This document shows, piece by piece, positions 47,452 through 52,036 of a DNA stretch of 64,000 nt. Made by a program: the position numbers and the translations under genes. The notes below the pieces were generated by a model, which saw only the letters and a program-made list of their open reading frames with translations, ran no database searches and was not told where the DNA came from. The stretch covers positions 9,681 to 73,680 of the IMG/VR virus record IMGVR_UViG_3300017963_000257; one strand, given 5' to 3'. Origin of the DNA: a virus. Each line of letters opens with the position of its first letter. Within the stretch, counting starts at the first letter, position 1.

Positions 47452-48222
47452 ATGGCGAATCCTCAACTCGAAAATGGTCATATTAAGATTGCCAACGATA
47501 TTTGGGATGCATTGGCTAAGATTCGTATAAGCGGTGAAGAGTGGCAGGTGCTAAATGTCATTCTTCGAAAGACATACGGTTGGAATAAAAAACAGGATCA
47601 CATATCTCTGTCTCAATTTGTTTTAGCTACGGGTTTAAAGAAGCCAAATATTGTCCGAGCAAGGCAAAAGTTGTTATCAAAAAAGATAATCGTTATCAAA
47701 AAAGATAACCAGTTAAACGTAATTTACCGGTTTAATAAGGATTTTGATTCATGGAAACCTTTATCAAAAAAGATAACCGTTATCAAAAAAGATAACACAT
47801 CGTTATCAAAAAAGATACCCACAAAAGACACTGTACAAAAGACAAAAAGAAATATATGCGCAAAAACCAAGAAAAATGATGATGTAGATAACAATGAATT
47901 TCAAGTTTTCTACGAAGCCTACCCCAAAAAGAAATCTAAGGAGGCAGCATTTAGGGCATGGCAGAAAACACGAAAGGATAGACCATCGTTACGAAATCTC
48001 TTAAAAATCCTCAAAACTCACGTGGGAAGTGAAGATTGGAAAAAAGAAAATGGGAAATACATTCCTTACCCGGCTAGCTGGTTGAATGGGCGCCGGTGGG
48101 AGGATGAAGTCGAAACCACAATATCGGAAACAACTGTCACCTGTTGTAAAGCCTGCGGCCGCTCAGATTGGATGGAACTGAATGATAGAGGGATTTGCGA
48201 GAAATGCCGTTCAAACCAATAG
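47452..48222 (+). CDS. Replication initiator, lambda O-like
   Basis: ANPQLENGHIKIAN, RKTYGWNKKQDHISLSQF, YPKK.SK..AF.AW, YIPYPASWLNGRRWEDE. Confidence 0.88.
   Translation: MANPQLENGHIKIANDIWDALAKIRISGEEWQVLNVILRKTYGWNKKQDHISLSQFVLATGLKKPNIVRARQKLLSKKIIVIKKDNQLNVIYRFNKDFDSWKPLSKKITVIKKDNTSLSKKIPTKDTVQKTKRNICAKTKKNDDVDNNEFQVFYEAYPKKKSKEAAFRAWQKTRKDRPSLRNLLKILKTHVGSEDWKKENGKYIPYPASWLNGRRWEDEVETTISETTVTCCKACGRSDWMELNDRGICEKCRSNQ
47674..47818 (+). repeat. Origin iterons: 5x TTATCAAAAAAGATA(A)
   Basis: Copies at 47674, 47693, 47761, 47780, 47803 inside the initiator gene. Confidence 0.85.
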
Positions 48223-49296: not shown

Positions 49297-49881
49297 ATGA
49301 TCCTGTCCCTTGACATCGCCTTCAACAACATCGGTTGGTCGATTTTCCATGATAAGCAAGTGGTGGACCTGGGGGTGATAAGCGCTCCGAAGTCGGGCCG
49401 GAAGATCGTATCGGTCGCGGATGAACGCGCTGATCGGTGTGCGGCCATGACCGGTATGCTGATGGACTTAATTTTTCAGTATAAAGTTCCGGCGATCATC
49501 GGGGAGCTTTCGGCGGCATCCCAGAACGCAGCGGCTGCGAACATGCTGGGCTGGGCCAATGGGCTCGTGGTTGCCACATGCAGGATCTTGGAATTGCCGG
49601 CCGAATGGGTAACTCAACATCAGGTGAAGATTGCAACGGTAGGCAGGAAGAACGCAACGAAAGATGAGATTATGGATCGAGTGGCAGGTTATTATGGATG
49701 GGAACGGACGGAAAAGGCCGTCAATATAACGAAGGGAAAGAGGACAGGAAAAACAACGATGAAAGTAACTTATCACGTTTTAGGGAGGAAATACCCGAAG
49801 GGCACCTTTGAGGACATTGCGGATTCAATAGGTGTTTATTGGGCGTCGAAGGATAGGAATTTGGTAAGACTTTATGGTTAG
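49297..49881 (+). CDS. RuvC-like Holliday junction resolvase
   Basis: ILSLDIAFNNIGWS, IIGE, VKIATVG..NATKDEI, DIADSIG. Confidence 0.8.
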   Translation: MILSLDIAFNNIGWSIFHDKQVVDLGVISAPKSGRKIVSVADERADRCAAMTGMLMDLIFQYKVPAIIGELSAASQNAAAANMLGWANGLVVATCRILELPAEWVTQHQVKIATVGRKNATKDEIMDRVAGYYGWERTEKAVNITKGKRTGKTTMKVTYHVLGRKYPKGTFEDIADSIGVYWASKDRNLVRLYG

Positions 49882-50059
49882 GAGAATACATGGAAAGAAA
49901 AACTTTTTGTCCAAACGATGGATTCGGAGTTAGCGTGGATGAAGCCAGCTATTGATGACTTAGGCATTAAATGCGAATGCCCTGGTTGCCATAGGCTAAT
50001 TTCAATAACCGCATGCCCAATTTGTGGGCAAAAAATAACCCCGCGGAAAGGAGACAAGG

Positions 50060-50749
50060 ATGGTAAGTAGCATCGCAGGAGATTTTTATCGGTTGGAAAT
50101 TCGTTTTGCTGAAGACTTTTTGGGGACGGTCCCAAAGAGCAAGGAGGTCTATAAGAAATACATTGCCAGCAAGAAGCCGGACCTCACCGACGATGAGCTT
50201 GATGAAGAAGTGAACAGCGTTCAGGACACAGAAGAAAAGGGGTGGACAGGGTTTCACAAGGATGATAATGGCCTGTTTATCTTTGATTACATGCTAAAGG
50301 GATTCATTAAGGCATCCTTCGAAGTATGCCAGGAGATTGGCGCCATCGATAAGGTGAAGGCATACAGGAAATGGATCGACGAGCTGATCTTCATATGGCC
50401 GCGGAAAATCTATTGTGGGCAGTCTGATCCCGATAGCACCCTTGAGAGACCGTTGAGGGTTATGACAATGCAGGGACCTCGGGTTACGTTAAGCCGTTCA
50501 GACACGATGGCCGAGGGGACCCGACTCAGGTTTCTCGTTGAGGTGTTGGGGAAAAAGATCAAGTGGGAATCGATTGAGCAGGTGTTCGACTATGGTAGGT
50601 ATGTGGGGCTGGGACAATGGCGTGGGAGTGGTGGATTTGGTCGGTTCGAGCTTGAGGATGTAACCCCAATAAACAAAGAATTGGGCATCAAAGCCAAAGC
50701 GATGGCAAAGCAAAGCGACGAACAGTTTTGGCAGTGTTTGGAGCAGTGA
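50060..50749 (+). CDS. Solo Cas7-like RAMP protein
   Basis: beta1 LEIRFAEDFLG; LFIFDYMLKGFIK (RAMP alpha1-like); thumb-like RPLRVMTMQGPRVTLSRSD; GTRLRFLVEV; G-rich loop YVGLGQWRGSGGFGRF. Confidence 0.7.
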   Translation: MVSSIAGDFYRLEIRFAEDFLGTVPKSKEVYKKYIASKKPDLTDDELDEEVNSVQDTEEKGWTGFHKDDNGLFIFDYMLKGFIKASFEVCQEIGAIDKVKAYRKWIDELIFIWPRKIYCGQSDPDSTLERPLRVMTMQGPRVTLSRSDTMAEGTRLRFLVEVLGKKIKWESIEQVFDYGRYVGLGQWRGSGGFGRFELEDVTPINKELGIKAKAMAKQSDEQFWQCLEQ

Positions 50750-51121
50750 TGGCAGTGTTTAGCGCCGTTCTGTGGTGGTATTGTTAAGCACAGTGAAGTA
50801 GCGGCATGGTTTGGCAGGTCCCGGCATGGGCACAGTGTAGCATGGTAAGGTTTCGGCAGGGTAGAACCTCGTACCGCGTCGGCAATGTTCCGTGAGGTGG
50901 CGTGATGGTGTGGTGAAGCGCGATAGAGTAACGTGGCGGCATAGTCTCGTTAAGTGCAGTGTCGGCAAAGCAAAGCGGGGTAGCCAAGAGCAATGGTAAA
51001 GCACGCTTATCGCATGGTGAGGTATTGTATCGGCATGGCACAGCATGGTAGGGTCGGTAATGGTAGAGTAAGGCACCGTGTCGTGATGCAGCGGCGCAGC
51101 TCAGCGGAGTTGAGCGGAGGC
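50701..51121 (+). ncRNA. Periodic NNNGY/NNYGGY repeat array, candidate guide RNA(s) for the adjacent Cas7-like protein
   Basis: Hand parse gives 81 consecutive 4-6-nt units, 73 ending in GY; hexamers recur mostly every 26 nt. The RNA function is inferred. Confidence 0.65.
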
Positions 51122-52036
51122 AGCTTCCCAGGCTTTATACACCCTATCCCTGATCATCTTGGGGGTCGGGTGGAGATACCGTTCGCGGATTGTCTCCACC
51201 TTGTCCCCCAAGAGAAAGGCGATGTCCTCAATCCTCATGTTTCCAGTGTAGAACAGGTAGGTGGCCGTGTAATGGCGAAACGTATGAGGTCCTCTACCAT
51301 CCTTCCCGTTCTTCAGGCCCAGGTCTTGCAACATCCGTGTGATTTCAGATTTGATCTTGTCGACATTTGGGAAAAGACAGCTTGTTTTATTGTTAATCAC
51401 ACAATGTGTCTTTTTGTATTCCGCATTTGCCAAAAGTTCGGCCAACAAAACAGCTGTTTTCCTTGAGAAAACAACAGGCCGGGGCTCAGTCTTCCCCTGG
51501 ATGAAAACACACATTTCGTAAAGGTGAATATCTTCCATCCTGATCCCCGCTATCTCTCCAACCCTGGCGCCGGTTTCTACCAGTAGGCGCACGACCACTT
51601 GAAATTCTAGGGCGCGAGTGCTTGCAGTCAGGACATTCCCATTGTTAAACCGATATGCAAGACATTTCTCAATGTCTTCCTCTGTGAACCAGCGGTCCAG
51701 ATGCTTCCTTTTGTTTTCCTGCCGGTCTTTGTTGGGAATCCGGTAGGTGAACTCCGTTGGATACCCCGCCCACTTCAGGAAAATCTTGGTGCAGTTTAAA
51801 TACTGCTGTACGGATTTTCCAGACAGACCTTTGGATTCAAGATATGTTGCGAAGTCGCCAAGGTTGCTTGATACAACCTCAAATTTCTCATGACATATGG
51901 CGGCTGGACAGCCCAGCGCCGGAGATTCTTTCATGAAATTCTCAAGGTGTCCAAGCACATACCCATATAGTTCCCGCGTAGACTTCGCAAGGCCTTTGAC
52001 TTCAGGTGATTCAAGGTATTTCTGAATTATGTTCAT
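51101..52036 (-). CDS. Second tyrosine recombinase (XerC/D-like)
   Basis: SAM-like N-domain; TGARVGE, GK, HTFRH, LLGD (H to D), RY. Confidence 0.85.
   Translation of the reverse strand: MNIIQKYLESPEVKGLAKSTRELYGYVLGHLENFMKESPALGCPAAICHEKFEVVSSNLGDFATYLESKGLSGKSVQQYLNCTKIFLKWAGYPTEFTYRIPNKDRQENKRKHLDRWFTEEDIEKCLAYRFNNGNVLTASTRALEFQVVVRLLVETGARVGEIAGIRMEDIHLYEMCVFIQGKTEPRPVVFSRKTAVLLAELLANAEYKKTHCVINNKTSCLFPNVDKIKSEITRMLQDLGLKNGKDGRGPHTFRHYTATYLFYTGNMRIEDIAFLLGDKVETIRERYLHPTPKMIRDRVYKAWEAASAQLR

What the first reader, a model, noticed from the sequence alone, without database searches (positions are those of the whole stretch)
50060..51121. Phage solo Cas7-like protein plus a 5-nt-periodic repeat array: candidate RNA-guided system that is not CRISPR
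Seen: ORF 50060-50749 has RAMP/Cas7 hallmarks, including the alpha1-like MLKGFIK, a thumb-like RPLRVMTMQGPRVTL and the C-terminal G-rich loop GLGQWRGSGGFGRF. No cas1/2/3/5/6/8/10 or CRISPR array is in the window. Starting in its last codons is a ~420-nt G-rich tract that parses into tandem NNNGY pentamers. Known: Cas7 proteins polymerise on guide RNA with a fixed per-subunit periodicity. Inference: each subunit binds one pentamer through the constant (N)GY and displays the variable bases, giving a non-contiguous guide code. With no nuclease partner it would likely act by binding or silencing DNA of competing phages or host defence loci. From memory this resembles reported phage 'VIPR'-type systems (Cas7-like protein plus GGY/NN repeat RNA), which I cannot verify here. 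This copy has a looser NGY constant and regular hexamer punctuation.
Basis: partly seen in the sequence, partly recalled or inferred. Interest (0 to 1): 0.95.

Follow-up and report, generated by a model that had tools for sequence, protein, structure and literature searches.

The report
Phage VIPR system: Vipr plus guide array
This phage carries a lone Cas7-like protein followed by about 430 bases of five-letter repeats. It is a genuine but divergent copy of the VIPR RNA-guided DNA-silencing systems first described in 2026, so it is real and tidy but not a new kind of system.

Summary
ORF 50060-50749 belongs to a large, mostly viral family of about 200-residue proteins. Its model has a Cas7/RAMP fold (VIA-align Z 9-11 to type VII Cas7, Csm3 and Cmr4). 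A profile comparison aligns nearly its full length to the Vipr family of Escherichia phage SUSP1 (96.6%, E 5.5e-10).

From 50689 to 51119 the + strand holds 83 units, 75 of them well formed. The units are YNNNG pentamers, punctuated mostly every 26 nt by a YNNYGG hexamer. The parse score lies about 14 sd above shuffles.

In most of 80 homologous viral loci, the strongest 5.1-5.3-nt periodicity lies just downstream of the gene. No cas genes, CRISPR array or conserved partner gene are present.

This is the VIPR system published in three 2026 preprints, which list YNNNG as a variant repeat.

Still open are the targets of this array (gapped searches found only chance hits), its transcription and processing, and the meaning of the regular hexamers. 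The hexamer spacing differs from locus to locus. This scan has already noted VIPR-like loci in more than 500 genomes. Verdict: new member of a known kind, of moderate to low interest.

The parts
50060..50749 (+). vipr gene: a solo Cas7-like RAMP of 229 aa. The conserved core is about residues 7-204. The last ~20 codons (from ~50689) run into the array, and the TGA stop lies inside the hexamer TGATGG.
   Evidence: ORF and translation. Family of 352 / 1613 clusters. AF2 pLDDT 86.3. Foldseek E ~1e-6 to Cas7-11 and Csm3. VIA Z 10.9-9.2 to type VII Cas7, Csm3 and Cmr4. hhalign to the SUSP1 Vipr family: 96.6%, E 5.5e-10, 181 columns. Homologues end near residue 200-205.
50689..51119 (+). Presumed vrRNA array: 83 units, made of YNNNG pentamers with a YNNYGG hexamer mostly every 26 nt. 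There is no inter-guide tail and no ribozyme.
   Evidence: No Rfam match. The RNA folds worse than its shuffles, z +1.84. The same architecture occurs downstream of homologues.
50747..50814 (+). Longest run of well-formed units (13 units, 'S1'). It was used as a trial guide for gapped target searches.
   Evidence: Parse. Searches gave only chance-level hits.
49918..50070 (+). Small 50-aa ORF with CxxC...CxxC (zinc-ribbon-like) that overlaps the vipr start by 11 nt. It may be co-translated, but it is not a conserved partner.
   Evidence: Only sub-threshold Pfam hits. No tblastn relative in 80 homologous loci. No PADLOC hit.
51101..52036 (-). Tyrosine recombinase gene that converges on the array. 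Its last ~19 nt overlap the final array units. This is context, not a conserved part of the system.
   Evidence: Pfam Phage_integrase 3e-15 and phrog_1 7.6e-31. The same vipr-array-integrase layout occurs only in L003, at 63% identity.

Best explanation
This is a VIPR (Viral Interference Programmable Repeat) system of a temperate, uncultured phage from sediment and seawater metagenomes. It consists of a vipr gene and, directly behind it on the same strand, a tail-less array of guide (vrRNA) units.

Inferred by homology to the SUSP1 system:
- The array is co-transcribed with vipr.
- Vipr protomers line up head to tail along the RNA, one per unit.
- Each protomer holds the constant G (published G2) and the following pyrimidine (Y3) through the conserved W187-R188 of the G-loop and the thumb.
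- Each protomer presents the two bases after the Y (N4, N5) for pairing with double-stranded DNA in which every third base is skipped.
- With no nuclease partner, the complex would silence transcription of rival mobile elements.

Specific to this family:
- The first G of the published GGY is free, so the unit is YNNNG.
- This fits the loss of both SUSP1 residues that read that G. H17 lies in a 5-residue loop that this family lacks, and D177 is replaced by Gln186, which is at least 90% conserved here.
- Every fourth to seventh unit carries one extra base and a full GG.

Shown here: the fold, the homology, the array grammar, the conservation of the gene-array pair and the predicted self-association.

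Inferred only: transcription, RNA binding, the reading rule for this array, and its targets.
For: Homology and fold:
- hhalign of a 135-sequence family alignment against 33 SUSP1-type Viprs gives 96.6%, E 5.5e-10, over 181 columns and nearly full length. The smaller alignment gave 89%.
- The G-loops align as GLGQWR to GVGDWR.
- PDB entry 36pp 'SUSP1 Vipr protein' is the only RAMP among the weak sequence hits.
- The model has a Cas7 fold by Foldseek (E 1.6e-6, probability 1.0) and by VIA-align (Z 10.9, rmsd 3.5 over 136 residues, down to Z 8 across Cas7 families).

Array:
- Across 33 distinct arrays next to homologues, 2047 pentamers read Y 92% / G 91% at the ends. The 597 hexamers end in G 67% / G 92%.
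- In most of 80 viral loci the strongest 5.1-5.3 periodicity starts just downstream of the gene, on its strand.
- The preprint lists YNNNG among the variant vrRNA repeats.

Reading rule:
[quoted passage not shown] - Eight unit-order shuffles reach at most 21 of 24.
- vrRNAs aimed at rival vipr genes are in print.

Other support:
- The array RNA is less structured than its shuffles.
- Three copies of the protein are predicted to associate head to tail. The ipSAE score is 0.72 against 0.00 for the best of 3 controls, run contacts agree at least 73%, and partner pLDDT is at least 79. That mark was reached by 20 of 30 proteins solved as pairs of one chain and 1 of 23 solved as single chains. Resemblance to solved Cas7 filaments may contribute.
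- The context is viral. The record is a 73.7-kb IMG/VR virus, 91% complete, with RepO, RuvC, integrase and tail-fibre genes.
Against: - No target of this window's own array was found. Gapped NNx searches of the phage itself, 80 related loci, IMG/VR and JGI metagenomes gave only chance-level hits without extension.
- The single cross-family match lies in a GA-rich, low-complexity stretch. It is one case only.
- No vap accessory gene is conserved next to the family, whereas the preprint calls two-gene loci typical.
- There is no 3' tail, pseudoknot or ribozyme between guides, so where one guide ends and the next begins is unknown.
- The strict GGY motif of the characterised type II is not met.
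- There is no promoter or terminator call of note.
- The fold matches are closest to RNA-targeting Cas7s (types III, VII and III-E), so DNA as the target rests on homology to SUSP1 alone.
Confidence: 0.83

Rival explanations
1. It is a Vipr-type RNA-guided complex, but it uses a different read-out from SUSP1. One version: the 21-36-nt segments between hexamers act as separate mini-guides or assembly modules. Another version: the target is RNA rather than DNA.
For: - Hexamer spacing is sharply peaked at 4-7 units rather than geometric, and its mode differs between loci (permutation p 0.0024).
- In this array the unit after a hexamer starts with CA in 11 of 16 cases against 9 of 46 elsewhere (p 0.0006). 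In L031 that unit is often TAAAG. That looks like a short constant junction.
- The nearest solved folds are RNA-targeting Cas7s.
- No DNA target was found under the published rule.
Against: - The one good guide-target match in the family spans two hexamers and reads the hexamer and post-hexamer units like any other.
- Homology to the DNA-binding SUSP1 Vipr covers the whole protein, including W and R of the G-loop and K33.
- No nuclease or catalytic partner is present.
Confidence: 0.12
2. The periodic tract is a DNA-level element rather than a guide RNA. It could be a recombination or attachment site for the adjacent recombinase, an iteron field or a G-rich structural tract. The RAMP-like protein would then bind something else.
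For: The tract abuts and slightly overlaps a tyrosine recombinase gene. Transcription was not shown.
Against: - The tract travels with the vipr gene in 80 loci, and only one of them has the recombinase.
- It is strongly strand-asymmetric, with the gene strand scoring 128 against 11 for the opposite strand over the locus.
- Its grammar is that of published vrRNAs.
Confidence: 0.03
3. It is a remnant or decoy of a CRISPR-Cas system: a captured Cas7 used, for example, as an anti-CRISPR, with no guide of its own.
For: It has a Cas7 fold and a weak PADLOC Csm3 hit at E 0.022.
Against: - There is no match to Pfam RAMPs, NCBIfam or any curated Cas7 model.
- There are no cas genes or CRISPR repeats.
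- The family has more than 1600 clusters, is conserved as a pair with the pentamer array, and is homologous to Vipr.
Confidence: 0.02

Closest known systems
Type II VIPR of Escherichia phage SUSP1 (Vipr, vap1, four vrRNAs; PDB 36pp; bioRxiv 10.64898/2026.04.26.720920 and .720927)
   Same: - It is a solo single-RRM RAMP with a thumb and G-loop, homologous over nearly its full length.
- The G-loop W-R and K33 are conserved.
- Pentamer-repeat RNA genes lie next to the gene on the same strand, in a phage, with no cas genes.
- The two bases after the pyrimidine are variable.
   Different: - SUSP1 has strict GGYNN pentamers, 9-16 per guide. Each guide ends in a conserved tail with a pseudoknot, and the guides are separated.
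- Here the unit is nGYNN (YNNNG), and the array is one unbroken run of 83 units with a hexamer about every fifth unit and no tails.
- The SUSP1 residues that read the first G (H17, D177) are absent or replaced by Gln.
- There is no vap1 homologue and no conserved neighbour.
Variant VIPR types with YNNNG repeats and 'staggered' tail-less arrays (same preprint, methods and legend of fig. S18)
   Same: The preprint names YNNNG as an alternative vrRNA repeat. It also describes continuous arrays in which the end of one vrRNA is the start of the next, offset by 1 nt. That fits a reading frame that slips by one base at each hexamer.
   Different: I could not see the figures or tables, since no supplements are held. 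The type assignment, and whether the regular hexamers are what the authors call staggering, remain unverified. The main text does not mention a locus-specific spacing of 4-7 units or a GG-YA junction.
CRISPR Cas7 backbone proteins (Csm3, Cmr4, type VII Cas7, Cas7-11 domains, Csf2)
   Same: It shares the RRM core, the beta-hairpin thumb and the glycine-rich loop. It is predicted to stack head to tail, as in a Cas7 filament.
   Different: It has no CRISPR array, no other cas genes and no curated family match. The guide period is 5 (5.2) nt rather than 6 nt. Its second RRM and other elaborations are lacking, as reported for Viprs.

Membership tests
VIPR (Vipr + vrRNA) | Protein homologous to an experimentally characterised Vipr | tested here: met
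   hhalign of A3 (135 sequences) against A2 (33 SUSP1-type Viprs) gives 96.6%, E 5.5e-10, 181 columns. A single-sequence comparison was only 58%, and the PDB profile hit to 36pp had E 0.29.
VIPR (Vipr + vrRNA) | Minimal RAMP fold: one RRM, a thumb hairpin and a glycine-rich loop | tested here: met
   AF2 model with pLDDT 86.3. Foldseek E 1.6e-6 and VIA Z 10.9-8 to Cas7 families over residues ~4-206.
VIPR (Vipr + vrRNA) | Adjacent tandem pentanucleotide repeats with constant G/Y letters alternating with variable letters | tested here: met
   83 units at 50689-51119, with Y at position 1 in 58 of 60 pentamers and G at position 5 in 57 of 60. The pattern holds family-wide.
VIPR (Vipr + vrRNA) | Strict GGY constant motif (type II consensus YNNGG) | tested here: not met
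   The position before the constant G is G in only 17 of 60 pentamers. The preprint accepts YNNNG as a related consensus, so this excludes type II, not VIPR as a whole.
VIPR (Vipr + vrRNA) | Invariable 3' tail / pseudoknot, or a ribozyme, separating the guides | tested here: not met
   No repeated non-pentamer element occurs in the array, and Rfam finds nothing, including no hammerhead. Tail-less 'staggered' arrays are mentioned in the preprint.
VIPR (Vipr + vrRNA) | Accessory vap gene next to vipr | tested here: not met
   Clustering of the ORFs around 80 loci found no conserved neighbour. The local 50-aa ORF has no relative in those loci. The preprint calls vap 'typical' and counts six vap genes for seven types.
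VIPR (Vipr + vrRNA) | Viral or proviral context without cas genes or a CRISPR array | tested here: met
   The record is an IMG/VR virus, 91% complete, with phage genes. It has no Cas1, Cas2 or RAMPs match and no CRISPR-like repeats.
VIPR (Vipr + vrRNA) | Targets follow the NN + 1-nt-skip rule | tested here: inconclusive
   One match within the family, L046 to the L002 vipr gene, gives 23 of 24 in codon phase, while shuffles reach at most 21. No target was found for this window's own array.
VIPR (Vipr + vrRNA) | vrRNA is expressed and co-purifies with Vipr | not testable with these tools
   This needs sRNA-seq and a pull-down.
CRISPR-Cas Cas7 (Csm3/Cmr4/Csf2 etc.) | Match to a curated Cas7/RAMP family model | tested here: not met
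   Pfam none. NCBIfam none. PADLOC Csm3 only at E 0.022.
CRISPR-Cas Cas7 (Csm3/Cmr4/Csf2 etc.) | Encoded with a CRISPR array and other cas genes | tested here: not met

The most novel reading that the evidence does not exclude
The regularly spaced hexamers may be a functional second layer of the guide grammar that the published main texts do not describe. In this array each hexamer is one extra base plus a full GG, followed here by CA. The hexamers recur every 4-7 units, with a mode that is specific to each locus. They might mark nucleation or processing points that cut a tail-less array into modules of about one helical turn (five protomers, 26 nt). Alternatively they might give the RNA slack once per turn so that very long filaments can form. 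The loss of both residues that read the first G (H17 loop, D177 to Q) would explain why only the hexamer units keep a full GG.
Probability: 0.3. Interest if true: 0.6.

Novelty: new member of a known kind. Interest (0 to 1): 0.35.

Why it matters
VIPR systems are a newly described route to programmable DNA recognition and a proposed ancestor of CRISPR. This locus adds a clean example from a very large environmental family of more than 1600 clusters at 50% identity. The family needs no accessory gene, relaxes the GGY anchor to GY, and writes its guides as one continuous array with a regular one-base slip.

If the slip proves functional, it would show how tail-less arrays are divided into guides or how long filaments are built. 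The D177-to-Q change, together with the loss of the loop that holds SUSP1 H17, would give a simple structural account of how the constant motif evolves.

As it stands the finding mainly confirms published work, and the array's targets are unknown.

Tried and rejected
Searches that returned nothing:
- Tandem Repeats Finder sees nothing in the tract, because the units are too variable.
- Pfam, PHROGs and NCBIfam give no family for the protein.
- tblastn of the protein against GenBank phages finds 5 distant relatives but not SUSP1.
- Rfam finds no hammerhead or other family in the locus. Two sub-threshold hits there (suhB/mmgR E 0.0057, CRISPR-DR57 E 0.89) are taken as chance. Nothing in the whole window reaches gathering score.
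- The sigma-70 promoter and terminator scan is at shuffle level, and there are no tRNAs.
- The solved SUSP1 Vipr structure (36pp) is not in either fold library, so no direct structural comparison was possible.

Target search for this array:
- Rules tried against the phage plus 80 loci were NN with 0-3 skipped bases, an extra skip at hexamers, and NNN with 0-2 skips. All gave noise.
- In IMG/VR, two scans gave 0 hits. The others gave 3, 9 and 28 hits that do not extend and that scatter over all reading frames and unrelated proteins.
- JGI metagenomes gave 2 hits with no extension.
- The 508 units of L031 against the local sequences also gave noise, equal to shuffles.
- No self-target was found in the phage.

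Expression:
- No RNA holder is listed among the public runs.
- Laying contigs of four DNA runs showed only that the stretch is present.

Local parse: it over-extends in G+C-rich loci (for example L040, L044, L052, L061, L071-74). Those loci were left out of the family statistics.

Rejected idea: degenerate units do not bound the guides in general, because L031 has about 1.6 kb with almost no degenerate unit.

Full report
**What is there**

ORF 50060-50749 (+) encodes 229 residues behind a good ribosome-binding site. It has no Pfam, PHROG or NCBIfam family.

It belongs to a large family:
- A word-indexed search gave 352 relatives.
- An exhaustive HMMER search of cluster representatives gave 1613 clusters at E <= 1e-3, 151 of them below 1e-30.
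- Members are about 200 residues long and almost all unnamed.
- IMG/VR holds at least 319 loci, whereas one-genome-per-species prokaryote contigs hold only 7, all from environmental MAGs. The family is therefore mainly viral.
- The alignment shows an invariant G-L-G-Q..G..G..F loop near the C-terminus and a conserved ERPLRxMTxxGPRV hairpin.
- The window's protein is about 25 residues longer than most members.

**Fold**

An AlphaFold2 model built on 33 sequences has mean pLDDT 86.3. Its order of elements is that of a RAMP: an RRM core with a helical insertion after strand 1, a long beta-hairpin (126-150), and a glycine-rich loop before the last strand.
- Foldseek against the PDB returns only Cas7-type proteins at the top: Cas7-11, Csm3, Cmr4 and type VII Cas7, with E from 1.6e-6 and probability 1.0.
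- An independent all-against-all structural search gives Z 10.9 (rmsd 3.5 A, 136 residues) to type VII Cas7.
- It also gives Z 10.4-9.2 to Csm3 and Cmr4, and Z above 8 to Csc2, type I-D Cas7 and type IV Csf2.

**The tract**

Starting inside the last codons of the ORF, the + strand is periodic.
- Fourier power peaks at 5.2 nt (10.3, against 0.72 +/- 0.42 in shuffles), not at 5.0 or 3.
- The non-integer period has a simple cause. The tract parses into YNNNG pentamers (Y in 58 of 60, G in 57 of 60) with a YNNYGG hexamer inserted, most often after every fourth pentamer. That gives 26-nt super-units and a lag-26 identity of 0.438.
- The parse scores 136.5 against 51.9 +/- 6 for shuffles and at most 57 elsewhere in the window.
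- A local version bounds the array at 50689-51119 with 83 units. Nothing comparable exists on either strand of the 64-kb window.
- The tract is G-rich (36.7% against 25.5%) and has stops in all three forward frames.
- The unit after a GG hexamer begins with CA in 11 of 16 cases against 9 of 46 elsewhere, p 0.0006.
- As RNA it folds less well than its own shuffles, z +1.84. That suits a single strand meant to be coated by protein.

**The pair is conserved**

- In most of 80 IMG/VR loci that encode a relative, the strongest 5.1-5.3-nt periodicity in about 8.5 kb lies just behind the gene. In about eight loci it lies just in front.
- Over 33 distinct arrays, 2047 pentamers have Y 92% and G 91% at their ends. 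The 597 hexamers end in G 67% / G 92%.
- The spacing of GG hexamers is peaked, not geometric: 4, 5, 6 and 7 units occur 71, 140, 104 and 42 times.
- The mode differs between loci. It is 4 in L004-L006 and L014, 5 here and in L031, 6 in L067, and 7 in L063. A permutation test gives p 0.0024.
- No other gene is conserved beside vipr. The local 50-aa zinc-ribbon-like ORF and the convergent recombinase are not part of the family's module. Only L003 shares the recombinase.

**What it is**

Three 2026 preprints describe these systems.
- Vipr is an ancestral single-RRM RAMP.
- vrRNAs are tandem YNNGG repeats whose GGY is buried by the protein.
- The NN dinucleotides pair with double-stranded DNA that skips every third base.
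- The result is transcriptional silencing of rival phages and satellites.
- The methods list NNNGG, YNNNG and NNNNG as variant repeats. They also mention tail-less 'staggered' arrays.

I tested the link directly.
- The SUSP1 locus was read from NC_028808. Its guides are strict GGYNN pentamers with tails.
- A profile of this family finds the PDB chain '36pp SUSP1 Vipr protein' only weakly, at E 0.29 on the G-loop.
- Profile against profile, the relation becomes clear. It is 89% with 33 sequences, and 96.6%, E 5.5e-10, 181 columns and near full length with 135 sequences.

**Reading the residues**

In SUSP1 the first G is read by H17 and D177. The second G is read by R138 and W178, and the pyrimidine pocket includes R179.

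In the alignment:
- W178-R179 correspond to W187-R188.
- K33 is kept.
- D177 is replaced by Gln186, which is at least 90% conserved in this family (invariant in the 33-sequence alignment).
- H17 falls in a five-residue loop that this family lacks.

Both readers of the first G are therefore gone, and the first G is exactly the letter that is free in YNNNG. This is an inference from alignment, not a measurement.

**Does the published code apply?**

- I searched all arrays against all fetched loci with NN and 0-3 skipped bases.
- Only the one-skip rule gave a long match. Units 7-18 of the L046 array match the vipr gene of L002 at 23 of 24 positions.
- That match is in codon phase, with the wobble base skipped. 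The fourth unit letter agrees with the wobble base in only 2 of 12 units. The match crosses two hexamers without any extra skip.
- Eight shuffles of unit order reach at most 21 of 24.
- Guides aimed at rival vipr genes are reported in print.
- The target stretch is GA-rich and this is a single case, so I count it as suggestive only.

For this window's own array I found no target. The searches covered the phage, the related loci, IMG/VR and JGI metagenomes, and all hits behaved as chance.

**Self-association**

Three copies of residues 1-205 are predicted to bind head to tail.
- The ipSAE score is 0.72 against 0.00 for the best of three controls.
- The runs agree in at least 73% of their contacts, and partner pLDDT is at least 79.
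- That mark was reached by 20 of 30 proteins solved as pairs of one chain and by 1 of 23 solved as single chains.
- The calibration used two copies, so these counts hold only roughly.
- The interface joins helix-1 and neighbouring strands of one copy to helix-2 and the G-loop of the next.
- Resemblance to solved Cas7 filaments may account for part of the score.

**Context**

The genome is a 73,680-nt IMG/VR virus record, 91% complete by CheckV, with a single vipr. The exact stretch occurs in sediment and seawater DNA runs. The module lies between the replication and recombination genes (RepO, RuvC-like) and a convergent recombinase and tail-fibre gene.

**Verdict**

The system belongs to a class already published, and this scan has already noted that class in more than 500 genomes.

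Three things remain open:
- the targets of this array
- how the array is transcribed and processed
- the meaning of the regular hexamers

The hexamers may be what the preprint calls staggering. I could not check that, because its figures and tables are not held.

Noticed in passing
L031:3000-3990 and L031:4600-6260: A relative (IMGVR_UViG_3300005541_000008) has near-perfect arrays on both sides of vipr. They total about 2.6 kb and 500 units. Most lines read hexamer + 4 pentamers, and the unit after the hexamer is often TAAAG. It is the cleanest example of the 26-nt grammar.
   Followed up: partly
L046:3037-3098 vs L002:593-628: An array of one family member spells 23 of 24 first-and-second codon letters of another member's vipr gene (peptide KKNDLDEDKVDEE). 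It is a possible guide against a rival's VIPR, but the target is low-complexity and this is a single case.
   Followed up: partly
34 arrays of loci L001-L067 and the window: The number of units between GG hexamers has a locus-specific mode of 4, 5, 6 or 7 (permutation p 0.0024). I did not test whether it follows the Vipr phylogeny.
   Followed up: partly
window 47673-47817: 19-23-nt tandem repeats (TTATCAAAAAAGATAAC...) lie inside the RepO-like gene. They are probably origin iterons, as in lambda.
   Followed up: no
window 49906-51153: In two metagenome runs the small ORF, vipr and the array form one 1248-nt Logan contig, ending within about 25 nt of the neighbouring contigs. A low-depth variant branches at 49869-49911. 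This hints that strains differ just outside the module.
   Followed up: no
window 50576-50661: Short contigs from two runs match only the G-loop coding region, with 7-13 differences. Other family members probably co-occur in the same samples.
   Followed up: no
window 51101-52036: The convergent tyrosine recombinase overlaps the last array units by about 19 nt. L003 has the same vipr-array-recombinase layout.
   Followed up: partly
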